Source: Clostridia bacterium
GTDB taxonomy: Bacteria > Bacillota > Clostridia > Oscillospirales > SIG627
Length of the DNA: 41,461 bases
NCBI GenBank assembly: GCA_017558945.1
Contig: JAFYTG010000178.1
Location: 1-41,461 of the forward strand
Direction: 5' to 3'
Shown here: one piece after another, positions 332-41,119 of the stretch
How the letters are laid out: each line of letters begins with the position of its first letter
How positions within the stretch are numbered: the first letter of the stretch is position 1
Notes under the pieces: generated by a model
The model's input: only the letters and a program-made list of their open reading frames with translations
What the model was told of the DNA's origin: nothing
The model's database searches: none
Program-made: the position numbers and the translations under genes

Positions 332-1528
332 ATGGGTTACAGAAACAATCCGATTTATATGTGTACCACCAAAAGCAAATTCGGCTCTTTGGGATATGAT
401 TTTCATTTATCCGTAGACAAGATAAGCGGTGATTATCGACATTCCGCACCGCTCATGCGTGAAATACTTTTTGAATTTTTACAAGGTAAATATATAACGG
501 GCTCTCTGAAAGACCCTCTTTATTTTGGAGGGCAAGACTGTTATGTTTACAAAACCGAAAAATACACACAGACCATATGCAGAGTATCGGACAATTATCT
601 GTACTCCGAATATTTTCTTGATGCATGGAGCAATTATTATTTTGTCGATGTTTTTGATTGCGAGCACTATGACGAGTGTTGCGAAGAAACGAAAATCTGT
701 ACGATTTTTCCGTCAAGCAACGAGCACGATTGGGATGCTATATATAGTGATAAATGCTTTTTCTATTGTTCCGCCCGTGAAGAAAAGCACATCCGGCAGC
801 TTGAAGATATAACAAAGCGGGTAATGAAAGCCGCAAGCAGAGAGCTTCTGCCATCAGATTATGAATATGGCGAATGGGACGGTATCACAATTGAGTCGGA
901 AGAAGCGTGTAACACACCTGACGTTGATGAACAAATAGGGCTGAACATTCGGGATTATCAGCATTTTTCTTGTCAGCCGGGATTTGACAAATATCCGCTA
1001 TACCTTTTTGCTAACGGAAATGGGTTGTCACTTGCCACCTCTCCCGACTGTCAGTATGCGGCATTGAACAGACTTCTTGACGGTGCTTTTTATCGTGGCT
1101 TATCCGAGCATTTTGACGTTTCCTTAGAGCTTGACACGGTAAGCGAGGCGGTATTTGAATTTGCAGGAGAGACCGACAGATGCTACCGTGACGGTAACAG
1201 CCTCATAATACGGCAAATGGATGACTGTATGTTCTCGGATTTTTTGAGAACCTACACAATTGACACGCTTTTCTATACCAAAGGGGATTGGGGCGAGAAA
1301 AAGGAAAATCCTCTTTTCAAGCTTTCCTTTTCTCCTATGGGACTCAACGCAAATCTTATTGCAAATTTTGAGATATACGATAAATCCGTTGTTGACATAA
1401 TAAAGAGCGTTATGACTGATATTGCGGAAAAGTATAAACGCACACTTTATTTTAATGCAAAGCCTCCGCTTACAAAAATACCCGAGGCTGTTACGAATAA
1501 TCCACGTAAGGATTCTAATTTATTTTAA
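332..1528 (+). CDS. hypothetical cytoplasmic protein (398 aa, Cys/Tyr/Phe/Asp-rich); no domain recognised
   Basis: Long ORF with a GAAGGA SD-like element before the ATG, its own consensus promoter, and a terminator right after the stop. No signal peptide or TM segment is visible. A paralog lies at <1..125. Confidence 0.8.
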   Translation: MGYRNNPIYMCTTKSKFGSLGYDFHLSVDKISGDYRHSAPLMREILFEFLQGKYITGSLKDPLYFGGQDCYVYKTEKYTQTICRVSDNYLYSEYFLDAWSNYYFVDVFDCEHYDECCEETKICTIFPSSNEHDWDAIYSDKCFFYCSAREEKHIRQLEDITKRVMKAASRELLPSDYEYGEWDGITIESEEACNTPDVDEQIGLNIRDYQHFSCQPGFDKYPLYLFANGNGLSLATSPDCQYAALNRLLDGAFYRGLSEHFDVSLELDTVSEAVFEFAGETDRCYRDGNSLIIRQMDDCMFSDFLRTYTIDTLFYTKGDWGEKKENPLFKLSFSPMGLNANLIANFEIYDKSVVDIIKSVMTDIAEKYKRTLYFNAKPPLTKIPEAVTNNPRKDSNLF

Positions 1529-5051: not shown

Positions 5052-5081
5052 AAATGAAAAATACTGCCCTTGGAGGATAAA

Positions 5082-6011
5082 ATGAATAAAAAGACACTGT
5101 TTTTTATTGACGACGTTATCTGGGTATTCCGTGATCTTACAAGACAAAGACCCGCTTCGCTTTTCGATAATCCGTTTATGAGGCTGTTGCTCGAGCTTCA
5201 CACTCTTTACGGCGTGAAAACACAGCTCAACGTATTTTATCAGACCGACACCTTTTACGGAAACGACCTCTTTACCCTTGACGAAATGACCGATGCCTAT
5301 AAATCGGAATTCGAGGCTTGCTCGGATTGGCTGAAGCTCGGCTTCCATTCAAGGCAGGAATTTCCCGACTACCCTTACATCAACGCAACCTACGAGCATA
5401 TAGCGGAGGACTACGCGCTCATCAAAAACGCGGTTTTACGCTTTGCGGGAGAAAAATCCTTCAGCATATCCACAACTCCTCATTGGAGACCGATAAGCCG
5501 CGCGGCTTGTCACGCGCTTTACGACGGTGGCATCCGTATGATGAGTGCTACCTGCTCAAATTTATCGGCAAACGACACCGACCTATCCCTTTTGCCATAC
5601 GGTCACGCAGGAAGATTTTTACAAAACCGTCAGCCCGAGACCGCTCTTTTCGTAAGAGAATTCGGAGACCCCGCCCTCAAAATATCAATACGCGGCTACA
5701 ATAACATTTCCACCGAGGAAAGCGAGCGCACAAGATACACCTGCGATTACGTCGTTGACGGGGAGACGGGACTCTGCTTCAAGGAGCTTGGAGGCGCACC
5801 CTCTCTCAACGTTGCAACAAAAGAGGAGATCGCCGAGGTATACCCAACTCTCGTTGACAGAGAATTCCTCTGCTACGCCACCCACGAGCAATATTTTTAT
5901 CCCGACTACTACGCATATCAGCCCGACTATCCCGAAAAGCTAAAGCTTGCGGCTAAAATCATTTCGGAAAGCGGCTACGAATACGTTTTCGGCGGAGACC
6001 TCCTAAAATAA
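5082..6011 (+). CDS. hypothetical protein, paralog A of a ~310-aa family; function unknown
   Basis: GGAGG lies 5 nt before ATG 5082 (MNKKTLFFIDDVIW...); the TTG at 5070 in the ORF track is unlikely to be the start. The product is collinear and similar over its whole length to the 9001..9933 product. Shared blocks: FFIDD.IWV.RDL.R.RPAS.FDN.FM, SDWLK..FH..QEFPDYPY.NATY, RFAGEKS, PHW.P.SRA.CHAL, LPYGHA, NRQPET.LF, HEQYFYPDY.AY.PD. Confidence 0.85.
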   Translation: MNKKTLFFIDDVIWVFRDLTRQRPASLFDNPFMRLLLELHTLYGVKTQLNVFYQTDTFYGNDLFTLDEMTDAYKSEFEACSDWLKLGFHSRQEFPDYPYINATYEHIAEDYALIKNAVLRFAGEKSFSISTTPHWRPISRAACHALYDGGIRMMSATCSNLSANDTDLSLLPYGHAGRFLQNRQPETALFVREFGDPALKISIRGYNNISTEESERTRYTCDYVVDGETGLCFKELGGAPSLNVATKEEIAEVYPTLVDREFLCYATHEQYFYPDYYAYQPDYPEKLKLAAKIISESGYEYVFGGDLLK

Positions 6012-9000: not shown

Positions 9001-9933
9001 ATGGAAAAGCTTGCATATTTTTTTATTGACGATACCATCTGGGTAATGAGAGACCTCGCACGCGAAAGACCTGCGTCAATTTTCGACAACGCATTTATGA
9101 AGATGCTCAAGCACGCACACGACGATACGGGACTTACCGTTCAGCTCAACCTCTTTTACAGAACGGACTTCTTCTACGGTGACGACGAGTTTACCCTCAA
9201 GGATATGCCCGACATATACAAGGCAGAATTTGAGGCTAATTCCGATTGGCTGAAGATGGCGTTCCACGCAAAGCAGGAATTTCCCGACTATCCTTATGTT
9301 AACGCAACCTACGATGACCTCAAGAACAACTACAAGGCAATTGTTGACGAGATAATCCGCTTTGCAGGTGAAAAGTCCGTATCTGTCGCACTCTGCCCCC
9401 ACTGGCTTCCCGTAAGCCGTGCAGGCTGTCACGCACTTGCAGACTGCGGTGTTAAGTTCATCACCCCCACTTACGGAACCAGAACGGAATACAACGGCGA
9501 CCAGAGCACACTACCCTACGGTCACGCCCAGAGACTTCTCAACAACCGTCAGCCCGAAACAAAGCTCTTTACGAGAAGATCAAAGGACAAGAGAATTGCG
9601 GCATCCATTTGTGCCTACAATCATCTTGACGAGGCTGAATATTCTTCACTCACCGGAAAGAACGCTTCCATAATTGACGAGGAAACGGGACTTCACTTCA
9701 GACAGATGGGTGGCGGCCCTTGCCTTAACAACAACAACTGTGAGGAAATAAAGGAAACGCTTACTCGGTTTAACAACGAGGGAAGACACTATATAGGCGT
9801 ATGTCTCCACGAGCAGTATTTCTATCCCGACTATTTCGCATATATCCCCGATATTGCGGAAAGAGTATACCTCCTCGGAAAAACACTCACTGATTTCGGC
9901 TTCCGTTGGATAACGGCAGAAGAATTCAAATAA
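9001..9933 (+). CDS. hypothetical protein, paralog B of the ~310-aa family; function unknown
   Basis: AAGGAG lies 7 nt before the ATG. Full-length similarity to the 5082..6011 product (see that entry). Confidence 0.85.
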   Translation: MEKLAYFFIDDTIWVMRDLARERPASIFDNAFMKMLKHAHDDTGLTVQLNLFYRTDFFYGDDEFTLKDMPDIYKAEFEANSDWLKMAFHAKQEFPDYPYVNATYDDLKNNYKAIVDEIIRFAGEKSVSVALCPHWLPVSRAGCHALADCGVKFITPTYGTRTEYNGDQSTLPYGHAQRLLNNRQPETKLFTRRSKDKRIAASICAYNHLDEAEYSSLTGKNASIIDEETGLHFRQMGGGPCLNNNNCEEIKETLTRFNNEGRHYIGVCLHEQYFYPDYFAYIPDIAERVYLLGKTLTDFGFRWITAEEFK

Positions 9934-11258: not shown

Positions 11259-11298
11259 AAGCGATACTTGGCATTTGCCGAGTATCGCTTGTTTTTTT
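11259..11298 (+). terminator. rho-independent terminator of the MFS gene
   Basis: AAGCGATACT-tggcatttgccg-AGTATCGCTT followed by GTTTTTTT. Confidence 0.8.
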
Positions 11299-11327
11299 AT
11301 AAGAGGTAGACTTTTTTTGAACATGCA

Positions 11328-11350
11328 ATTGCACACGTTTTGTGTGCAAT
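11328..11350. repeat. 9-bp-stem inverted repeat (hairpin or operator-like)
   Basis: ATTGCACAC-gtttt-GTGTGCAAT. It overlaps the short palindrome TGCAATTGCA (11324..11333). Confidence 0.4.
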
Positions 11351-11364
11351 TTCCTATGTTATAA

Positions 11365-11500: not shown

Positions 11501-11534
11501 AGCACCCGAATTTTGATAATTCGAGTGCTTTTTT
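11501..11534 (+). terminator. orphan rho-independent terminator with no annotated gene upstream
   Basis: AGCACCCGAATT-ttgat-AATTCGAGTGCT (11 of 12 bp paired) followed by TTTTTTG. It lies ~200 nt after the MFS terminator and ~60 nt before the next gene. Confidence 0.6.
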
Positions 11535-11593
11535 GTTGATTTATATCAAATTATATGTTACAATTGTTCAAAAGATGCAAAAAGGAGAAAGAT

Positions 11594-12313
11594 ATGGATA
11601 AGCTTGCACTTGAATTTCTTGAAACCTGCAACAGCGACAACTGTTGCTTCGACAATCTTCTCGTCCTCCCCGCCGACGGCGACGTGGGATTTGAGGAGTA
11701 TATCGACTATAAGGTTAAAAAAATAATAAAGAAGAAAAATATCTTTTCACCCGCCGACCAGCACAAGCTCGTTCTTGCGTATCCCGAGCCTGATGCTCCC
11801 GACGTTGTTTTCAATCTGTTTTTTGAATCCCCCTCAGTCGTTGCCAAGAACGACCACTTCAGAGGATGCTTCGCAATCGACGTAACCGAGTACCTCGGAA
11901 AAACCAACCATCCTCGCTTCAAGACGCTTTTGAATTATATCGGAACGAATACCGATATTGTTTTCGTGCTTATCGTTTGCACGGATAACGAGCAGTACAT
12001 AATGGATATGCTCAACACCGTCTGCCAGTATGACAAATTCCGTAAGGTTACCATTACTCTTCCTCCGCCCGAATACCTTTGCAAATACACAATGGAGGAA
12101 ATTTCGGACGTAGCCATCGACCTAAAGGAAACCCGTAAAATACTTTTGGGGTACTTCAAGGAGAACAGATACGGCTATGACGTTGCAGAATTTTTGGTAA
12201 TCTATCTGAAGAATGCAGGATATAACGGAGAAACGGAAAATTTAAAGAAGCTTCTTGGCGAATTTGAAAATCCCGCACACGTAACCGTTCAATACAAAAA
12301 GATTGGTTTTTGA
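11594..12313 (+). CDS. hypothetical protein (240 aa), partner of the VirD4-like ATPase; possible degenerate AAA+-like fold
   Basis: AAAGGAG lies 6 nt before ATG 11594 (MDKLALEFLE...); the upstream ATG at 11555 lacks an SD. The gene ends 11 nt before the next one. There is no intact P-loop. See findings for the by-eye resemblance to SpoVK/CbbX-type AAA+ cores. Confidence 0.8.
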   Translation: MDKLALEFLETCNSDNCCFDNLLVLPADGDVGFEEYIDYKVKKIIKKKNIFSPADQHKLVLAYPEPDAPDVVFNLFFESPSVVAKNDHFRGCFAIDVTEYLGKTNHPRFKTLLNYIGTNTDIVFVLIVCTDNEQYIMDMLNTVCQYDKFRKVTITLPPPEYLCKYTMEEISDVAIDLKETRKILLGYFKENRYGYDVAEFLVIYLKNAGYNGETENLKKLLGEFENPAHVTVQYKKIGF

Positions 12314-12324
12314 GGTGATTAGCA

Positions 12325-13878
12325 ATGGCAAGAAAAATTTTACCTAATTATATAAAAAGACACGGCGCAGAATTTGAAAGCATGGAGAATTTCATAAAAG
12401 CCTCCACACTTTCCGACACTACCGCAACCAAGCTTGAAACGTCAGGCGTGCCTATGACAAGGCTCAGCGACAACACCTACGTTACCACAAGAAATGACCT
12501 TCACTGCTTTATTATCGGTGACTCGGGAAGCGGTAAAACGAGACGACTCATACTCCCCACCATACATCTGATGGCTAAGGCCGGCGAATCAATGGTCATT
12601 TCCGACCCCAAGGGAGAGCTTCACAGATACACCGCCGAGATGCTTGAGAACAAGGGATATGAGGTTCTCACGCTCAACTTTCGTAATCCCGAGCAGGGAA
12701 ACAAGTGGAATCCTCTCGGACTTGTAGAAAAGCTTTATCACAAGGGTGACAGAAAATCCATCGACACGGCGTTTATGCTTCTCGGAGACGTTGTTTCAAC
12801 CCTTTCAAACAACATAAAGAGTGAAAAGGACCCTTATTGGAGTATGGCGGCAATCTCCACCATTAAGGGAATTATTGAAATACTTCTCGAATACGGTGAC
12901 GAGGGCAGCCTTACCTTTGAAAACGTATCAAACGTTGCACGAGATATCTTTACCTCCTTTAATTACCCATCGGGACGTGACTTCCGCAACCTCAATGAAT
13001 TTTTCGACTCACTCCCCGATACCTCGTCAATCAAGCAAAATATGTCAACGCTGATGTCTGTAACAAGTGCCAAGACCACCTCGGGCTGTATCATATCAAT
13101 GCTCAACGGTATGCTCTCACTTTACACAAGCCAACAAGCACTTCTCGACCTTTTCTCTGAGTCGGAGATTGACATTGACAGCATAGGCAAAAAGCCCACG
13201 GCTCTCTTCTTTATCCTTCCCGATGACTCGGATGCACTCTATCCTATTGCAACGGTATTCGTAAAGCAGGTATATTCCTCGCTTATAAGTCTTGCGGATG
13301 CTCAGCCCGACGGAGTGCTTCCCAACAGAACCGTATTTTTGCTTGACGAGTTTGCAAACTTTGCAAAAATGGAGGCTATCGGCTCAATGCTCACCGCATC
13401 CAGAAGCCGTGGAATACGCTTTGTTCTGGTTTGTCAGAGTATGGATCAGCTTTCACAAAAATACGGCTTGGACGGCATGGAAATTCTTCTTGCCAATTGC
13501 CGTGCGTGGATATATTTAAGCTGTCGTAACCTTCCCTTTCTTGAACGTCTTGAAAAGCTTTGCGGTGAATATCTCAGCCCGTATACCGGTGACAGACATC
13601 CGCTCATTACGGTTTCCGAGCTTCAACATTTCAATCAGGGCAAGGTGCTTGTGCTAAATGACAGATGCCGTCCTATGATAGGCTATCTTGACCGAGACTA
13701 TTCGGAAATAGACTTCGGAAAGGACGTTAAGCACAAGCTGAAGATTGACGAGCTTATCCCGATAAATCCACGCAAAAAGGAAAGAAATGCGTACGGTCTC
13801 AGATACATTTTCGACCGCATTGCAGAGAAGGACCCTTCCTTCAAGCCCGTTACAAGCAGCAAGCCCTTTGATTTTTAA
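12325..13878 (+). CDS. VirD4/TraG-family (type IV coupling protein-like) P-loop ATPase lacking an N-terminal membrane anchor
   Basis: GAGGTGA SD. Walker A GDSGSGKT at residues 65-72 (12517..12540). Also ALFFILPDD, VFLLDEFANFAKME (Walker B region) and SRSRGIRFVLVCQSMDQLSQKYG, the block order typical of T4CPs. The first 64 residues are hydrophilic. Confidence 0.85.
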   Translation: MARKILPNYIKRHGAEFESMENFIKASTLSDTTATKLETSGVPMTRLSDNTYVTTRNDLHCFIIGDSGSGKTRRLILPTIHLMAKAGESMVISDPKGELHRYTAEMLENKGYEVLTLNFRNPEQGNKWNPLGLVEKLYHKGDRKSIDTAFMLLGDVVSTLSNNIKSEKDPYWSMAAISTIKGIIEILLEYGDEGSLTFENVSNVARDIFTSFNYPSGRDFRNLNEFFDSLPDTSSIKQNMSTLMSVTSAKTTSGCIISMLNGMLSLYTSQQALLDLFSESEIDIDSIGKKPTALFFILPDDSDALYPIATVFVKQVYSSLISLADAQPDGVLPNRTVFLLDEFANFAKMEAIGSMLTASRSRGIRFVLVCQSMDQLSQKYGLDGMEILLANCRAWIYLSCRNLPFLERLEKLCGEYLSPYTGDRHPLITVSELQHFNQGKVLVLNDRCRPMIGYLDRDYSEIDFGKDVKHKLKIDELIPINPRKKERNAYGLRYIFDRIAEKDPSFKPVTSSKPFDF

Positions 13879-13881
13879 AGT

Positions 13882-13926
13882 AAAAAGGCAGAGAATTTTT
13901 CAATTCTCCGCCTTTTCTCTTTTTTC
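13882..13926. terminator. bidirectional rho-independent terminator (ATPase cassette / rpoZ)
   Basis: AAAAA-GGCAGAGAATT-tttc-AATTCTCCGCC-TTTTCTCTTTTTT, with one G.U-type mismatch. Confidence 0.75.
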
Positions 13927-13932
13927 AAGCCC

Positions 13933-14244
13933 TTATTCGTTTAAGGGTGCATCCTCGCCGCCCTCATAGTTTTCTTCAAGAACGGCTGTCTCGTCATCCT
14001 CTCCGTCATCCTCGGAGGGATAAGGATTTACCTCGTATTCACCTGCGTCAATTGCGTGAACCGCGGTCTTTACGGGCTTATCATCGTGTACGGGCTTCTT
14101 TGCCTTTTCGTCTCCTGCTGTAAGACGGTCCTCAAGGTTGTACTCGTCGATAATCTCACGGGCAACCTTTGCGGTTGCAATACAAATCTGGTAACGGTTA
14201 AGTCCGCCTGCGGTAAGCTTTTCAATAGAAGGCTCGTTCATCAT
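13933..14244 (-). CDS. rpoZ: DNA-directed RNA polymerase subunit omega, with a long acidic C-terminal extension
   Basis: PSIEKLTAGGLNRYQICIATAKVAREI matches the omega core. It lies directly downstream of gmk, as in many bacteria. Confidence 0.85.
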   Translation of the reverse strand: MMNEPSIEKLTAGGLNRYQICIATAKVAREIIDEYNLEDRLTAGDEKAKKPVHDDKPVKTAVHAIDAGEYEVNPYPSEDDGEDDETAVLEENYEGGEDAPLNE

Positions 14245-24574: not shown

Positions 24575-26779
24575 TTATTTATTGAGACAACGTCTTGTAT
24601 AATCAATATTTACAAGCTTTTCAACAAGATTCTGACGTGAGAAGTTATAATGGTTACTTGCCTCAAAGCCAATTCTCGAATCCTTGGACTGAACACGGAT
24701 AGCGTTGATGGTGTTAGCCTCTTCCTCATCAAGCGCCTGCATCATAACCTGCATAACGTCACGGTTGCCGTCGATTACCTTTTCACCGTCGAGCATTGCG
24801 TTACGCGCTCTGACGAAACGGGTAAGATGAAGAACGGACTCGAAGTGTACGAGCGTACCCTTTGCACAGCTCTTGAACTCCTCAAACTCATCACTTGTAT
24901 CCGCACAAGCATCAAGAAGCTTGACAGCCTCACGCCATGGCTCAACGACAAGTCGCATCTGTCTCTCGAATACGTCCTCGGCATATTCTGCGCTCCACGC
25001 ATCAACCGAGTCAAAGGAGATGCCGACCATTGCACCGCGTCTGCCCGTCTTTTCGGTATAGAACACCTGTCTCGGACCCGAGGTTAAGGGAGCCACGTAT
25101 ACGACGGAGCAGGAGAAGGGGAACTGTCGGAAGGCGTCCGACATAATTCTCTGCGCCTTTTTCACGGTATCGGCACAGCCTGCACCAAACACCTCGTCAA
25201 TCATTTCGTCAACGCAGCCATCGAGTGAATATTTGCCGTCAAAAATACCCGAAACGAGCGAAAGCGTGGGAGAAGGAGCACCGCCAAGCGTCCAGGAAAG
25301 CATCATATGACGGATTCCCTCATTCTTGAGATTTACCGCGTGCTCGGCAACAAGGTCGAATACGGGAATATAAGGGACACCGGAGCATTCCCAGGTGTTA
25401 TTGAACTGCACCTTTGCACAGCACTCGTGACCGTGCTTCTTTGCAAGATTCCAATTGTTCTTTGCCCACTCACCGGGACCGGGGTTAGACATTGAATAGT
25501 CAACGATGTCAACGGATGCACCCTTATTTATCTTGATATGAGTCTCGCTCGTTGACTGGAAGATAATTCCTTCGTCAAGAAGCTCGATAACCTTTTCAAC
25601 TCTGTCATCGGGCCATCCCCAAACCCAAGCAATTCCACGGGCGTCGGGATTGGCACGCTTAGCACCTCTGTAAAGGAGGTTATTAACCTCTGCAAGTACC
25701 TCGGGAACGCTACGCTGTGAGCAACGGGGACAGTTACAGTTGTCCTCGTTGGTATGAGAATAGCAGTTAGTGGGGTTTTCACTTCTTGTGATAGTGAAGA
25801 AGCCCGCGAGTCCATCTACCGCCTTAAAAAGCTGATAAGCACCGTTTTCAAGATACTCCTGAACCTCGGGAGTAGAGGTACACAGACAAGCCATACCCTT
25901 ATCCTCGACAGTTCTGCCCTTAATTTCGGGATGCTTTTCAAATACCGACATAGGCATCCAGCGAGGCTCGTTGAAGTAAAGATAAATTCCGATGCCGTAC
26001 TTTGCCGCACGGTCAACGAGCTTCTTAAGATTCTTCTGACGAATCTCCCAGCCTGCCGACATTTCGGGTGCAAAGGGATAAGGAACGAGCTGATAGAGAA
26101 CGCCCTGCATCCATACACCGTTAACACCGTATTTTGCATACTCCTCAAGGAGCTTATCGGGGAAGGGATCGAGAGTTTCGTCTATCAGGGGATCTCCGTA
26201 AAGTGCGAAATATGAATATATAAACTTCATATCCTTACCTGCGAAGGTGGGATAAGGAGTGGTAATGGGAGATGCGGGCTTATAATAATTTCTTGCAAAA
26301 TCAAAGGCTGTATCAGGAGCGTTTCCGATCTTCTCCTCAATATCCTTCAAAAGCTTTGCAAGCTCACGGGTTTTCGTAGCTTCTTCCTCGGTAAGAGGTC
26401 TCCAATAGCACTGTGTACCCTCTGACTTAAAGCTGATCTTATGGTCGAGGAAGTCATCCTCACGAAGCATTATTTCATATTCCTCTGCGGAAATACCGAG
26501 AAGGGTACACTGCTGAGGCTTGGAAAGAATGTGCCAGGTATCACGGACGGTGGTTATGTAGCCACGGCGTCTCCATTCGGGGTCTATCTTCTTATCGGGG
26601 TCAAGTCCCATAAGCTCCCAAGAGGCACGGATATCCTCGGGAGTCGCTTCAAGCACCTCTGCAAGCTTCTCTGCGGAATACATTCCCCAGGTTCTGAAGA
26701 GGACTGCCTGATATTCGGTCGGAAACCATAGATTTCGAATTTTGGGATCGACTACTGTTTCTTTGTAAACGTGTGCCAT
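24575..26779 (-). CDS. hypothetical cytoplasmic 734-aa protein; possible TIM-barrel glycoside-hydrolase-like enzyme (low-confidence function)
   Basis: AAGGAG lies before ATG 26779. No signal peptide. There are two tandem ~45-aa helical N-terminal modules, then alternating beta/alpha-like segments (GVNGVWMQGV, GIGIYLYFNEP) and a Cys cluster NCYSHTNEDNCNCPRC. Confidence 0.8.
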   Translation of the reverse strand: MAHVYKETVVDPKIRNLWFPTEYQAVLFRTWGMYSAEKLAEVLEATPEDIRASWELMGLDPDKKIDPEWRRRGYITTVRDTWHILSKPQQCTLLGISAEEYEIMLREDDFLDHKISFKSEGTQCYWRPLTEEEATKTRELAKLLKDIEEKIGNAPDTAFDFARNYYKPASPITTPYPTFAGKDMKFIYSYFALYGDPLIDETLDPFPDKLLEEYAKYGVNGVWMQGVLYQLVPYPFAPEMSAGWEIRQKNLKKLVDRAAKYGIGIYLYFNEPRWMPMSVFEKHPEIKGRTVEDKGMACLCTSTPEVQEYLENGAYQLFKAVDGLAGFFTITRSENPTNCYSHTNEDNCNCPRCSQRSVPEVLAEVNNLLYRGAKRANPDARGIAWVWGWPDDRVEKVIELLDEGIIFQSTSETHIKINKGASVDIVDYSMSNPGPGEWAKNNWNLAKKHGHECCAKVQFNNTWECSGVPYIPVFDLVAEHAVNLKNEGIRHMMLSWTLGGAPSPTLSLVSGIFDGKYSLDGCVDEMIDEVFGAGCADTVKKAQRIMSDAFRQFPFSCSVVYVAPLTSGPRQVFYTEKTGRRGAMVGISFDSVDAWSAEYAEDVFERQMRLVVEPWREAVKLLDACADTSDEFEEFKSCAKGTLVHFESVLHLTRFVRARNAMLDGEKVIDGNRDVMQVMMQALDEEEANTINAIRVQSKDSRIGFEASNHYNFSRQNLVEKLVNIDYTRRCLNK

Positions 26780-38785: not shown

Positions 38786-41119
38786 ATGCTTAAAAACATA
38801 ACGCTCGAAATGAGCTTAAAGCCCTTTAAAAAGACAAGCCCCGAATACATAAAAGAGGTTTGCAGAACGGTTTTTAACGATTGGAAAAGACTTATCGACA
38901 AGTTCGAGGGTGTCAGCATTATGCTGTGGACAGCCGACGGAAGCGAGCTTCTCGACTACACGGGAGAGCTTGACGAAAGCTTTGAATGGGGAAAGTGGGG
39001 AGGAACTGCCAACCCTATCACAGCTCCGAATCCCGAAGCCAGAGGTCTTTACCGAGGTCGCCGTTTGTATATGGAAAATCCTCCGATAATGACCTATCGT
39101 ATTTTAAAAAATATCGTTTCGGAGCTTAAGCGAATCGGAAAGGAAGCATTTCCTCAAAAGACTATTCGCGTGGGAACGACGTTCGATCCCGGTCCCGAAT
39201 TTGCCGTATCCGATTTTAAATACAAAAGGCACAATGAGGTCTGCCGTGGAACTGCAGACGTTTTCCATATGATATGTGCTCACGACGTTCTCAACGGGGA
39301 CGACCACAAGTACGCAGCATATCCCGACGGAATCCCCGACCAAACGCCCTTCGGCACGTTTTTAGGCAAGCAATCCGAGATTTTTATGACGGATATGGGC
39401 TTTGATTTCATCTGGCTTTCAAACGGTATAGGCTTCGGAAGCGATACCTGGAGCCCCGTAGGTGAAATTTTTGACGGAACGGATTTTCACATTGAAAATT
39501 TTGAGAAGGTAAAAAAGAGGGTATACGAATTCTGGGAGCTTTTCACAAAGGAGTGTCATTATCCCGTTGAGACGCGCGGAACGAATATGACGATGGGCAT
39601 CGACCTTTCGACCGACGGCGTACCGCTCCGTGATATTTACGATAAATTCGATATACTTCCTCCCCCAAACTCTCCTTGGGCAGCTATAAACTTTGACCTC
39701 GGAATTGAGCTTTCGGGATATATGTCGAGAATTGCTCACGTGCCGAGTGACAAATATATGTTCCGCTATTATCTGCACGACCCGTGGTGGCAAAACTCCC
39801 CCTGGTATGACAGATATAACTCCTTGCCTCACGATATATATCTCCCCCTTGCCTGCTCAAGAATTGACGGCGATGGCAATGTCAAAAATCCAACTCATAT
39901 GAGTATTCTGTCAATTGACAACACACGTGGAAATATGCCGGAGGCTTGCGTGGTTGAACCGTTACCTCATTTTCTGCGAGCTCTGAAGGAATGTCCCGAC
40001 AGACCTGCGCCAATCGTGTGGGCATATCCCTTTGACGAATATTCGGACGCCAACAGCGAGGCGGACGTGAGAAGGATATACGCCGAGGAATTCTTTATGC
40101 GAGGCGCAATAAACTGCGCTTTACCCGTGGCAAGCGTTATTTCAACCGCCAATTTCACAACCTGCAACAAGGACATTTTCAAGAGTAGCGTTATCGTCAC
40201 GCCCGTGCCGAGAAAAAATTACCCCTTTGAGAAGAATATAATCGACTACGCCAAAAACGGCGGAAGGGTTATTTTCTACGGCACCACAGAATTTGCAAGC
40301 ACCGAATTTTTAAGTCTTTTTGGCATAAAGCATACCGACGGTGTTTTCGGTGACCTTGATTACGTGGTTGAAGGAAAGGTGCAAAAGCCTTTGTTCCACG
40401 ACCCGAGAGTTGCCGCCGGAGAAATTATTGAGACGGCAGATGATGGAGTCTTTGCAACCGCAAACGGAAGAGCCGTTGCAATTCAGAAGGGTAACGCCTT
40501 CTGGGTAAGAGGATGCCTTAGCACAAAAAGACTTCCAAGCTCTCCCTTAAAGCCCAAAACTCTCGACCTTGCCTTTGGTGAGGATATTATGCTGACCGCT
40601 CTTGCAAGAATCGGCTACGCCATCGAAATAGACAAGGAGCTTCAACGTCCCGTCTTCACCCTTCACCGTCACAACAACGCATATATTTTTACCGAGTACA
40701 GCCATTGTGCCGTAGGAAAAACGAGAATGAGATTTCCATTCGGAATTCCCGTATTCAACGCCTGCGACGTAAAAATTGCCGACGGTATGGGCGAATACCA
40801 CTTCCCAAGATTTATGCGCGCCGAATGCCGAGTGTTTGTCGAGCAGGAGGCAGGAATTGTAACGGTTGCAGAAGAGCCTCCCGTAAGCTTCGAGCATCGC
40901 CGTATGATTCGCGTCAAGGGTCTGAGAAACGCAACGGTAAGAATTCTTGCCGAGGATTATTGCCGTGATAATTTCAAGGTGACGTTCTCCGAATGGTACG
41001 ATATCCTCTGCGGTACACCCGCTGAGGGCGAGTTTATCACCATAGGCAATGATACCTTCTTCGAGGCTCGCAACGTCACGGGTCACCTTCTTATCTCAAT
41101 GCCCGAGAAAGAACAATAA
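38786..41119 (+). CDS. hypothetical cytoplasmic 777-aa protein, operonic with the isomerase; possibly a carbohydrate-active enzyme (function not recognised)
   Basis: It starts 4 nt after the isomerase stop. No signal peptide or TM segment. A terminator follows. There are TIM-barrel-like strand motifs (DMGFDFIWLSNGIGFG) but no family I can name. Confidence 0.8.
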   Translation: MLKNITLEMSLKPFKKTSPEYIKEVCRTVFNDWKRLIDKFEGVSIMLWTADGSELLDYTGELDESFEWGKWGGTANPITAPNPEARGLYRGRRLYMENPPIMTYRILKNIVSELKRIGKEAFPQKTIRVGTTFDPGPEFAVSDFKYKRHNEVCRGTADVFHMICAHDVLNGDDHKYAAYPDGIPDQTPFGTFLGKQSEIFMTDMGFDFIWLSNGIGFGSDTWSPVGEIFDGTDFHIENFEKVKKRVYEFWELFTKECHYPVETRGTNMTMGIDLSTDGVPLRDIYDKFDILPPPNSPWAAINFDLGIELSGYMSRIAHVPSDKYMFRYYLHDPWWQNSPWYDRYNSLPHDIYLPLACSRIDGDGNVKNPTHMSILSIDNTRGNMPEACVVEPLPHFLRALKECPDRPAPIVWAYPFDEYSDANSEADVRRIYAEEFFMRGAINCALPVASVISTANFTTCNKDIFKSSVIVTPVPRKNYPFEKNIIDYAKNGGRVIFYGTTEFASTEFLSLFGIKHTDGVFGDLDYVVEGKVQKPLFHDPRVAAGEIIETADDGVFATANGRAVAIQKGNAFWVRGCLSTKRLPSSPLKPKTLDLAFGEDIMLTALARIGYAIEIDKELQRPVFTLHRHNNAYIFTEYSHCAVGKTRMRFPFGIPVFNACDVKIADGMGEYHFPRFMRAECRVFVEQEAGIVTVAEEPPVSFEHRRMIRVKGLRNATVRILAEDYCRDNFKVTFSEWYDILCGTPAEGEFITIGNDTFFEARNVTGHLLISMPEKEQ

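What the first reader, a model, noticed from the sequence alone, without database searches (positions are those of the whole stretch)
11594..13878. Stand-alone two-gene cassette: an apparently soluble VirD4/TraG-like ATPase plus an unknown partner, with no conjugation or secretion genes
Seen in sequence: 12325..13878 encodes 517 aa with Walker A GDSGSGKT at residues 65-72. It also has the Walker B region VFLLDEFANF and the block SRSRGIRFVLVCQSMDQLSQKYG. I recognise that motif order from type IV coupling proteins (VirD4/TraG/TrwB, FtsK-HerA superfamily). Canonical T4CPs begin with a membrane anchor before the P-loop. Here the 64 residues before the P-loop are hydrophilic, so the protein looks soluble. 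It sits 11 nt downstream of a 240-aa ORF with its own SD. Rho-independent terminators bracket the pair (11501..11534 and 13882..13926). The unit is wedged between an MFS transporter gene and the convergent core rpoZ-gmk-remA operon. Nothing else in the 41 kb looks conjugative: I see no relaxase, VirB4, pilin, integrase or transposase. By eye the cassette is more AT-rich than the adjacent core genes. Inference: it is unlikely to act as a T4SS component here. FtsK/HerA-type hexameric translocases paired with a single partner recur in anti-phage systems such as Sir2-HerA and DUF4297-HerA. An uncharacterised defence or DNA/protein-translocation module is therefore a reasonable hypothesis.
Basis: partly seen in the sequence, partly recalled or inferred. 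Interest (0 to 1): 0.82.

Follow-up and report, generated by a model that had tools for sequence, protein, structure and literature searches.

The report
Soluble coupling-protein ATPase with IGF-tailed partner
A gut Clostridia chromosome carries a long-resident, selected two-gene unit, a membrane-free relative of conjugation "coupling" ATPases plus an inactive AAA+-like partner ending in a ClpP-docking-type IGF tail, which in other genomes sits at the front of undescribed operons with a ClpP protease and two NACHT/STAND sensors.

Summary
11594..12313 (239 aa) and 12325..13878 (517 aa) form a self-contained operon, and the 20 larger ORFs scanned across the 41 kb are core or metabolic genes, none conjugative. 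The ATPase is a T4CP-fold protein (Pfam 1.7e-44; best structural matches Cagβ and TrwB) with intact catalytic motifs and no membrane anchor.

New here: the partner is a CbbX/SpoVK-type AAA+ fold lacking the Walker A lysine. It ends in a disordered linker plus an invariant hydrophobic-Gly-Phe/Tyr tail, found in 152 of 162 relatives against 5% of control windows. The partner is followed by the ATPase in every locus with readable downstream DNA, down to about 25% partner identity. The partner was not found in the plasmid, phage or viral collections.

Most loci continue with a ClpP paralog, a STAND NTPase, a YbjN-like protein and a NACHT NTPase. This system has no PADLOC model and I found no paper on it.

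The window holds a stand-alone version: dN/dS about 0.05, normal GC3, and still beside rpoZ in a 73%-identical relative. It is neither an ICE remnant nor a HerA-effector pair.

Best reading: a soluble translocase with an adaptor, probably working with ClpP in trans. The function, defence or regulated proteolysis, is untested.

The parts
11501..11534 (+). Upstream hairpin followed by a U-run; insulates the cassette from the MFS gene. A first terminator lies at 11259-11290.
   Evidence: RNA fold -15.9 kcal/mol, z -6.4, 0 of 200 shuffles as stable; the 11259-11290 terminator was found by the scan.
11536..11564 (+). Promoter-like site: TTGATT, 17 nt, TACAAT with an extended -10 TG.
   Evidence: Consensus scan, 9 of 12 matches. 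The count in the region equals the shuffle expectation, so this is weak evidence on its own.
11582..11587 (+). Shine-Dalgarno AAGGAG, 6 nt before the partner's ATG.
   Evidence: Read from the sequence.
11594..12313 (+). Partner gene, 239 aa: CbbX/SpoVK-type AAA+ fold (alpha/beta domain plus lid) without a Walker A lysine (PADGDVGFEEY in place of GxxGxGKT).
   Evidence: AF2 pLDDT 87.8. Foldseek hits ORC, RuvB, ClpA, Vps4 and RFC at about 1e-4. Profile against PDB: best hit CbbX, E 0.018. No Pfam, NCBIfam or PHROG family. Alignment A1.
12266..12310 (+). Partner C-terminal tail: disordered linker (residues 225-236) followed by KK-I-G-F. The IGF codons are 12302-12310.
   Evidence: pLDDT below 50 for residues 230-236. 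G238 is invariant. The motif occurs in the last 14 aa of 152 of 162 relatives against 5.3% of control windows.
12312..12318 (+). Shine-Dalgarno GAGGTGA overlapping the partner's stop codon; 11-nt gap to the ATPase start (translational coupling is likely).
   Evidence: Read from the sequence.
12325..13878 (+). Soluble T4CP-like (VirD4/TraG/TrwB-fold) ATPase, 517 aa.
   Evidence: Pfam T4SS-DNA_transf 1.7e-44, TraG-D_C 1e-19, TrwB_AAD_bind 1.7e-17. AF2 pLDDT 86.9. Foldseek Cagβ 3e-19, TrwB 6e-15. No hydrophobic segment.
12517..12540 (+). Walker A GDSGSGKT (residues 65-72).
   Evidence: G65, G68, G70, K71 and T72 are invariant in 26 homologs.
12718..13194 (+). All-alpha domain inserted in the nucleotide-binding domain (about residues 132-290). 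In T4CPs this is the substrate or regulator-binding domain.
   Evidence: Helices 132-287 in the AF2 model. Foldseek alignments span 455-533 columns against Cagβ and TrwB.
13333..13362 (+). Walker B VFLLDEFANF (residues 337-346).
   Evidence: E342 is invariant and D341 is at least 90% conserved.
13399..13467 (+). SRSRGIRFVLVCQSMDQLSQKYG block (residues 359-381) holding conserved Arg and Gln residues.
   Evidence: R360, S361, R362 and Q371 are invariant. The block aligns with the TrwB equivalent.
13882..13926 (.). Bidirectional terminator shared with the convergent rpoZ (13933..14244, minus strand).
   Evidence: Fold -18.5 kcal/mol on the plus strand and -24.8 kcal/mol on the minus strand, z about -6.3.

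Best explanation
The two genes encode one cytoplasmic machine. One component is an active ATPase derived from type IV coupling proteins, which are ring-forming (hexameric) translocases. The other is an obligate, catalytically dead AAA+-fold partner of the CbbX/SpoVK type. The unit is not part of a conjugation system. It is the stand-alone form of the module that heads an undescribed operon family in gut and rumen Clostridia: partner, ATPase, ClpP paralog, STAND NTPase, YbjN-like protein, NACHT NTPase.

Proposed mechanism:
- The partner assembles with the ATPase and controls or positions it.
- The partner's flexible C-terminal basic-x-Ile-Gly-Phe tail acts as a docking peptide of the kind Clp ATPases insert into the hydrophobic pockets of ClpP.
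- The ATP-driven translocase is thereby coupled to a ClpP ring. That ring is the operon's own paralog where present, and the housekeeping ClpP in trans in this genome.
- Captured substrates (protein, or a protein-DNA complex recognised through the all-alpha domain) are then degraded or remodelled.

Shown: folds, motifs, strict pairing, operon architectures, purifying selection, synteny.
Inferred: ring assembly by the ATPase, the physical complex, the target of the tail, the substrate, and the biological role. I think an anti-mobile-element or anti-phage role is likely for the large loci, and a constitutive or differently regulated role for this copy.
For: ATPase identity and integrity.

No membrane anchor.

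Partner fold and loss of the P-loop lysine.

Tail motif: present in 152 of 162 relatives, with 89 at the extreme C-terminus and IGF the commonest form. Control windows show 5.3%.

The same basic linker plus IGF tail occurs in 57 of 57 active AAA+ proteins of about 690 aa from the same clade, but in only 5 of 57 other SpoVK-like proteins. One such protein sits beside a ClpP-bearing module in L008.

IGF loops are the established ClpP docking element (PMC9035409).

A ClpP paralog with the catalytic Ser and His motifs visible in its sequence and about 50% identity to the S. aureus ClpP core follows the ATPase in L001-8, L012, L013, L016, L018-20, L030 and L031.

Pairing holds in every locus with readable downstream DNA, including remote partners P0173, P0237 and P0199.

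Paired ATPases score 212-271 bits with each other, against 70-131 bits with ICE or plasmid T4CPs.

The partner is absent from PLSDB plasmids, GenBank phages and IMG/VR. The closest plasmid ATPase is about 30% identical.

Functional and vertically kept: dN/dS is 0.051 and 0.058, with dS like the flanking genes; GC3 is normal; the unit lies beside rpoZ in a 73%-identical relative.

Stand-alone two-gene forms recur independently in L032/33, L034 and L037.
Against: No ClpP gene lies in the window, and the rest of the genome is unseen.

ClpP is absent from several full loci (L015, L017, L029) whose partners still carry the tail. The tail could therefore dock on the ATPase itself or on another ring.

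No complex prediction or experiment was possible.

The IGF element sits at a C-terminus here, not in an internal loop as in ClpX, ClpA and ClpC.

T4CPs are known as DNA and substrate receptors, not as ClpP partners.

The genomic contexts are mixed. Some are defence-like and many are housekeeping. The biological role is open.
Confidence: 0.5

Rival explanations
1. A DNA-directed defence or exclusion module that does not involve ClpP. The soluble T4CP-like ring loads on invading DNA or relaxase-DNA complexes, much as HerA-type rings act in Sir2-HerA or DUF4297-HerA. The partner regulates ring assembly, as CagZ does for Cagβ. Its IGF tail plugs into the ATPase rather than into ClpP.
For: The pairing is universal while ClpP is optional.

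The best structural match is the Cagβ-CagZ regulatory complex.

The large loci carry two STAND/NACHT NTPases. They can sit beside a type I R-M shufflon, beside type III CRISPR-Cas, or inside an ICE as cargo.

The long-form ATPase shares a domain of about 130 aa with the NACHT protein at 40% identity. This suggests recruitment by a sensor.
Against: This copy has no sensor and no effector.

It has stayed next to rpoZ across relatives only 73% identical, with core-gene-like dN/dS and GC3. That is unusual for defence cargo.

There is no PADLOC model except a generic mad8 P-loop hit at 1e-9.

This reading does not explain why the same tail is kept on active AAA+ relatives.
Confidence: 0.28
2. A lineage-specific housekeeping function in DNA handling, such as chromosome segregation, sporulation or repair, carried out by a soluble FtsK/HerA-superfamily motor and its adaptor.
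For: Stable core-chromosome position and strong purifying selection.

Another two-gene copy lies directly after parA-parB.

T4CPs bind DNA (established knowledge of TrwB).
Against: The distribution is patchy, with about 260 partner representatives among 1.84 billion proteins.

The module is often linked to NACHT/STAND and ClpP genes, and one copy is ICE cargo.

Some contigs carry two copies.

No DNA-processing partner gene is conserved beside it.
Confidence: 0.1
3. A decayed remnant of an ICE or plasmid, or an orphan coupling protein that lets a chromosomal segment hitch-hike on another element's T4SS.
For: The NCBIfam model 'VirD4-like conjugal transfer protein, CD1115 family' is passed formally, at 261 bits against a cutoff of 250. 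The public annotation reads 'type IV secretory system conjugative DNA transfer family protein'.
Against: No membrane anchor.

No relaxase, VirB4 or integrase among the ORFs scanned in the window, and none in most related loci.

dN/dS of about 0.05 and a constant 517-aa length across the full-length members of the cluster argue against decay.

Real T4CPs share only 25-31% identity.

The same NCBIfam model scores a genuine ICE T4CP lower, at 245 bits, so it does not discriminate.

The partner was never found on plasmids.
Confidence: 0.04

Closest known systems
Type IV coupling proteins (TrwB of R388, VirD4, H. pylori Cagβ, Legionella DotL)
   Same: The nucleotide-binding domain with Walker A and B and the Arg/Gln block, plus the inserted all-alpha domain. 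Pfam T4SS-DNA_transf, TraG-D_C and TrwB_AAD_bind all match, and these proteins are the best Foldseek matches.
   Different: No N-terminal transmembrane anchor. No T4SS or relaxase nearby. A separate clade, sharing 25-31% identity with plasmid or ICE T4CPs. Always preceded by the pseudo-AAA+ partner.
Cagβ-CagZ (PDB 8dol): a T4CP ATPase regulated by a small protein encoded next to it
   Same: A T4CP-fold ATPase with a dedicated small partner. It is the top structural match for the ATPase.
   Different: CagZ belongs to a membrane-bound secretion system. The partner here has an AAA+ fold with an IGF tail; from my own knowledge, not checked here, CagZ is a small helical protein that does not share that fold. 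No interaction has been tested.
Clp ATPase-ClpP proteases (ClpXP, ClpAP, ClpCP)
   Same: An AAA+-fold protein bearing a flexible hydrophobic-Gly-Phe element, encoded in many loci two genes before a ClpP homolog. IGF loops dock into the ClpP H sites (PMC9035409).
   Different: The AAA+ fold here has lost the Walker A lysine. The motor would instead be an FtsK/HerA-superfamily ATPase. The tripeptide is C-terminal rather than in an internal loop. The ClpP paralog's first 20 or so residues (which I infer to be the axial-loop region) do not align with canonical ClpP. No ClpP is encoded in this window.
HerA-effector defence pairs (Sir2-HerA, DUF4297-HerA)
   Same: A two-gene unit with an FtsK/HerA-superfamily ring ATPase and one partner.
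   Different: The ATPase is of the T4CP clade, not the HerA clade: Pfam DUF87 only 0.037, Foldseek HerA 1e-8 against Cagβ 3e-19. The partner has no enzymatic effector domain. No PADLOC hit.
CbbX / SpoVK / EccA-type AAA+ (Pfam AAA plus AAA_lid_6)
   Same: CbbX is the partner profile's best PDB sequence match, from the post-Walker B region into the lid. A remote partner matches the N-terminal half of an AAA plus AAA_lid_6 protein carrying the same IGF tail. A loose parallel, from my own knowledge: the type VII secretion system pairs EccA with the FtsK-like EccC.
   Different: The partner has a single domain and is catalytically dead. The CbbX match is weak (E 0.018). No secretion apparatus is present.

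Membership tests
Type IV coupling protein (VirD4/TraG/TrwB) | FtsK/HerA-type nucleotide-binding domain with Walker A and B. | tested here: met
   Pfam T4SS-DNA_transf 1.7e-44. Motifs are invariant in homologs. TrwB alignment.
Type IV coupling protein (VirD4/TraG/TrwB) | All-alpha domain inserted in the nucleotide-binding domain. | tested here: met
   The AF2 model has helices 132-287. Foldseek full-length matches to Cagβ and TrwB, TM about 0.6-0.7.
Type IV coupling protein (VirD4/TraG/TrwB) | N-terminal transmembrane anchor. | tested here: not met
   Maximum 19-aa hydropathy 1.21. The ICE T4CP control reaches 2.47 at residues 1-30.
Type IV coupling protein (VirD4/TraG/TrwB) | Encoded with a relaxase and T4SS (VirB4) genes. 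| tested here: not met
   None among the 20 ORFs scanned across the 41 kb (about a dozen further ORFs were not scanned). None in L004, L030, L032 or L034. In L002 the ICE has its own separate T4CP.
Type IV coupling protein (VirD4/TraG/TrwB) | Couples a DNA or protein substrate to a secretion channel. | not testable with these tools
   Needs conjugation or secretion assays.
NCBIfam NF045973 (VirD4-like, CD1115 family) | Score above the curated cutoff of 250 bits. | tested here: inconclusive
   261.3 bits, covering profile positions 17-358 of 442. Sister proteins score 251 and 249.8, and a genuine ICE T4CP scores 245. The model does not separate the two groups.
HerA-effector defence pairs (Sir2-HerA, DUF4297-HerA) | HerA-clade ATPase. 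| tested here: not met
   Pfam DUF87 E 0.037, below cutoff. Foldseek HerA 1e-8 against T4CPs at 3e-19 to 4e-10.
HerA-effector defence pairs (Sir2-HerA, DUF4297-HerA) | The partner is an enzymatic effector (Sir2 NADase or nuclease). | tested here: not met
   The partner is a pseudo-AAA+ fold with no Pfam, NCBIfam or PADLOC family.
MADS (PADLOC mad8) | A mad8 homolog within a mad1-mad8 operon. | tested here: not met
   Only a 1.1e-9 hit spanning the P-loop domain. No other mad genes are present. MADS is an 8-gene operon (bioRxiv 10.1101/2023.03.30.534895).
Clp ATPase-ClpP type protease | Flexible [LIV]-G-[FL]-type tripeptide on the ATPase-side component. | tested here: met
   KKIGF lies at the end of a disordered linker. 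The motif is conserved in 152 of 162 relatives.
Clp ATPase-ClpP type protease | An active AAA+ unfoldase carries the tripeptide. | tested here: not met
   The partner lacks the Walker A lysine. The active motor would be the T4CP-like ATPase.
Clp ATPase-ClpP type protease | A ClpP partner is present and bound. | tested here: inconclusive
   A ClpP paralog lies in cis in many related loci. It is absent from the window and from L015, L017, L029, L032 and L034. Binding cannot be tested here.

The most novel reading that the evidence does not exclude
The pair is the core of a new class of ATP-dependent protease. The motor is not an AAA+ protein but a soluble T4CP-derived (FtsK/HerA-superfamily) ring. 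A ring of dead AAA+ adaptor subunits plugs it into ClpP through C-terminal IGF tails. In the large loci this machine would be the executioner recruited by NACHT/STAND sensors through a shared C-terminal domain. It might capture what T4CPs naturally recognise, namely incoming relaxase-DNA complexes or phage proteins, and destroy it.
Probability: 0.2. Interest if true: 0.9.

Novelty: new variant of a known kind. Interest (0 to 1): 0.66.

Why it matters
T4CPs are known only as membrane-bound gatekeepers of type IV secretion. This is a coherent, selected clade that has lost both the membrane anchor and the secretion system. In their place it has a dedicated pseudo-AAA+ partner with a ClpP-docking-type tail.

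In most genomes it heads an operon with a ClpP paralog and two NACHT/STAND NTPases. That operon is absent from PADLOC, and I found no paper on it in the library searched.

If the tail does dock ClpP, ClpP would gain a non-AAA+ motor, and bacterial NLR-like systems would gain a proteolytic effector complex.

The stand-alone copy in this window gives the simplest two-protein version to test.

Tried and rejected
- Conjugative remnant or orphan T4CP. Rejected on the missing anchor, missing conjugation genes, purifying selection, clade separation and absence from plasmids.
- Phage origin. The partner has no hit in GenBank phages or IMG/VR. PHROGs gives only a P-loop-level terminase hit at 5e-4.
- MADS or another known defence system. 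Only a generic mad8 hit. The STAND, YbjN-like and ClpP components have no PADLOC hit.
- Horizontal-import signal. GC and GC3 are not anomalous.
- RNA elements in the flanks. No Rfam family reaches its threshold.
- Assigning the partner to a named family. No Pfam or NCBIfam hit, even for 56 remote relatives. hhalign against the 689-aa AAA+ protein of L008 was weak, at 14% probability.
- Literature. Six full-text searches found no description of a soluble T4CP with a ClpP and NACHT system. The eLife 2020 survey of conflict systems mentions only inactive FtsK domains.
- Complex modelling of partner with ATPase, or of the tail with ClpP. Not possible with the single-chain structure tool.
- The first 25-kb-contig pattern made me suspect a small plasmid or phage genome. 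The contexts showed chromosomal or ICE loci instead.
Full report
OBSERVATION

The ATPase (12325..13878, 517 aa) carries GDSGSGKT at residues 65-72, VFLLDEFANF at 337-346 and the SRSRGIRFVLVCQSMDQLSQKYG block at 359-381.

The partner starts at ATG 11594, after AAGGAG. It is 239 aa, and this start matches the N-termini of 21 homologs. The gap between the genes is 11 nt, with a GAGGTGA ribosome-binding site overlapping the partner's stop codon.

Both flanking hairpins fold far better than shuffled sequence, with z about -6.3. The downstream hairpin works on both strands and is shared with the convergent rpoZ.

No 19-residue window of the ATPase exceeds a Kyte-Doolittle mean of 1.21. A real ICE coupling protein fetched later reaches 2.47 at its N-terminus.

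Pfam scans of 20 larger ORFs across the window, 10 on each side of the pair, gave tRNA synthetases, RecA, a MiaB-type radical-SAM enzyme, HolA, YicC, an AraC regulator and an MFS transporter. Nothing was conjugative or integrative, and no ClpP was found. About a dozen further ORFs of at least 120 aa were not scanned, and five of the 20 had no Pfam hit at 1e-5.

The one soft point is the AT-richness. Overall GC is slightly low (0.433 and 0.458 against 0.473 +/- 0.023). GC3 is average or above.

THE TWO PROTEINS

The ATPase matches Pfam T4SS-DNA_transf (1.7e-44), TraG-D_C and TrwB_AAD_bind. Its AlphaFold model has pLDDT 86.9. The best structural matches are H. pylori Cagβ in the Cagβ-CagZ complex (3e-19), then TrwB (6e-15) and DotL (4e-10). 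HerA and VirB4 follow at 1e-8 or weaker. The catalytic residues are invariant across 26 homologs.

The ATPase formally passes the NCBIfam model 'VirD4-like, CD1115 family' at 261 bits against a cutoff of 250. Sister proteins score 250-251 and a genuine ICE T4CP scores 245, so the model does not discriminate.

The partner has no Pfam, NCBIfam or PHROG family. Its AlphaFold model (pLDDT 87.8) is an AAA+ alpha/beta domain plus lid. Foldseek hits ORC, RuvB, ClpA, Vps4 and clamp-loader subunits at about 1e-4.

The P-loop position reads PADGDVGFEEY, with no lysine in any homolog. A profile of 56 remote relatives finds CbbX as its best PDB match. That match is weak (E 0.018) but co-linear from the post-Walker B region into the lid.

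The last 15 residues are a disordered linker followed by KK-I-G-F.

THE TAIL

A profile search of 1.84 billion representative proteins found 261 relatives of the partner.

- Of 162 relatives of at least 140 aa, 152 carry hydrophobic-Gly-Phe/Tyr/Leu within the last 14 residues.
- In 89 of them the motif is the very C-terminus.
- IGF is the commonest form (70 cases), and it is usually preceded by Arg or Lys.
- The same pattern occurs in 5.3% of control windows from the same proteins.
- Two of the ten exceptions end in what look like translated sequencing-adapter peptides.

The same basic linker plus IGF tail ends all 57 of 57 members of a related family of active AAA plus AAA_lid_6 proteins of about 690 aa. 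Only 5 of 57 other SpoVK-like proteins have it. One member of that family sits between two partner-ATPase modules in L008.

A flexible IGF element is what Clp ATPases use to dock into the hydrophobic H sites of ClpP (PMC9035409).

CONSERVATION OF THE PAIR AND ITS CONTEXTS

In every fetched locus where DNA downstream of a partner gene is readable, the next gene is a T4CP-like ATPase. These loci are the window, L001-L035, L037 and L038. The rule holds for partners as remote as P0173, P0237 and P0199, whose partners share 26-27% and whose ATPases share 30-33% identity with the window.

Paired ATPases score 212-271 bits with each other across that divergence. They score only 70-131 bits with ICE or plasmid coupling proteins.

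The partner has no tblastn hit in PLSDB plasmids, GenBank phages or IMG/VR. The closest plasmid ATPases are about 30% identical Bacillus conjugative T4CPs.

Three architectures recur.

1. Full loci: partner, ATPase, ClpP paralog (sometimes missing), a STAND NTPase of about 836 aa, a YbjN-like protein, and a NACHT NTPase of about 1100 aa. Examples are L001-3, L012, L015-19, L030, L031 and, in a different gene order, L029.
2. Three-gene loci: partner, ATPase and ClpP among metabolic genes (L004-7, and the first copy in L008).
3. Two-gene stand-alone loci: the window, its 95-97% identical sister MAG (L011), L037, L032/33 (directly after parA-parB) and the remote L034.

The ClpP paralog shows the catalytic Ser (GMAASMG) and His (IHQP) motifs in its sequence and is about 50% identical to the S. 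aureus ClpP core. Its first 20 or so residues, which I infer to be the axial-loop region, do not align.

Long-form ATPases (about 835 aa; 60 of the top 120 homologs exceed 720 aa) carry a C-terminal domain of about 130 aa. It is 40% identical to the C-terminus of the NACHT protein of the same operon. This suggests homotypic recruitment. The window's short form lacks that domain.

Neighbourhoods of the large loci include a type I R-M with an S-subunit shufflon (L001), a MobP3 ICE that carries the system as cargo beside its own T4CP (L002), and a type III CRISPR-Cas locus (L038). Others are plain housekeeping regions (L030).

None of the accessory proteins has a PADLOC model. Six literature searches found no description of the system.

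STATUS OF THE WINDOW'S COPY

Against the sister MAG, dN/dS is 0.051 for the partner and 0.058 for the ATPase. dS is 0.27-0.38. The flanking core genes show dN/dS 0.04-0.18 and dS 0.13-0.42.

All eight full-length members of the 90% identity cluster are 511-517 aa; the other three are fragments of 259-274 aa.

A relative only 73% (ATPase) and 71% (partner) identical has the same two-gene form. It is also convergent with an rpoZ gene that ends in the same ...EGGEDAPLNE peptide.

The unit is therefore an old, vertically inherited, functional resident of this lineage. It is not a decaying import. The upstream side is variable: L011 has an extra 3.6 kb holding an AraC regulator and a 603-aa ORF that I read, untested, as a glycoside hydrolase, placed between the MFS gene and the cassette.

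INTERPRETATION

What is shown:
- a non-conjugative clade of soluble T4CP-fold ATPases;
- obligate pairing with a dead AAA+ adaptor bearing an IGF-type tail;
- frequent extension by ClpP and NACHT/STAND genes;
- selection and synteny of the stand-alone copy.

What is inferred:
- the two proteins form a complex;
- the tail docks a ring, with ClpP the best candidate and the ATPase itself the main alternative;
- the machine translocates and degrades or remodels a captured substrate.

A defence role is reasonable for the large loci. For the window's copy it is neither supported nor excluded. I give the ClpP-coupled reading about 0.2 in its strong form. I give the broader statement, a non-conjugative translocase plus adaptor module of this new operon family, about 0.5 as a full mechanism. 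The identity and pairing parts of it are near certain.

SCORES

Novelty: a new variant of a known kind, namely an exapted coupling protein with a new partner family.

Interest: 0.66. The finding is real. Its function remains inferred.

Noticed in passing
window 11302-11364; L011 6131-9771: The sister MAG has an extra 3.6 kb between the MFS gene and the cassette, holding an AraC-type regulator and a 603-aa ORF that I read, untested, as a glycoside hydrolase. In the window the junction carries a strong hairpin (11325-11352; -16.3 kcal/mol, z -4.1). So the region upstream of the cassette is an indel hotspot.
   Followed up: partly
L002 11789-12175 and L002 19263-19643: The C-terminal extension of long-form ATPases shares a domain of about 130 aa, at 40% identity (E 1e-28), with the C-terminus of the NACHT protein of the same operon. 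This looks like a homotypic adaptor domain. The window's ATPase lacks it.
   Followed up: partly
L008 7078-9147 and homologs P0303-P0422: A family of active AAA plus AAA_lid_6 ATPases of about 690 aa ends, in 57 of 57 cases, with a basic linker and IGF, like the partner. Other SpoVK-like proteins do not (5 of 57). Their N-terminal half resembles the partner.
   Followed up: partly
L001 1-7000: A type I restriction-modification locus with several S-subunit genes and a tyrosine recombinase (a phase-variable shufflon) lies directly upstream of a full system.
   Followed up: no
L038 1-7200: A type III CRISPR-Cas module (Cas10/Cmr2, RAMPs, Cas6) lies just upstream of a partner-ATPase pair. The contig ends right after the ATPase.
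   Followed up: no
L002 3414-8769 and 19941-22505: A full system rides as cargo in an ICE that has a MobP3 relaxase, a Toprim protein and its own 633-aa T4CP. It is followed by an M50-like membrane peptidase and a VWA plus PP2C pair that I read as TerY-like, a resemblance recalled from memory and not tested.
   Followed up: partly
L008 11528-13053; L032 6996-7418: Small coiled-coil proteins with a single membrane helix sit next to ClpP-less copies of the pair: one tail-anchored protein of 116 aa and one N-terminally anchored protein of 140 aa. They could be membrane tethers.
   Followed up: no
L002 12524-13111 and equivalents: The operon's ClpP paralog keeps the catalytic core, about 50% identical to S. 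aureus ClpP. Its first 20 or so residues, which I infer to be the axial gating loops, do not align.
   Followed up: partly
P0143, P0225 (public protein clusters): Two partner relatives end in ...GRASCRERV and ...CLLYTSRCV. I take these to be translated sequencing-adapter sequence, i.e. assembly artefacts in the public data.
   Followed up: no
window 332-1528, 5070-6011, 9001-9933, 24575-26779, 38786-41119: Five sizeable ORFs (398, 313, 310, 734 and 777 aa) have no Pfam hit at 1e-5.
   Followed up: no
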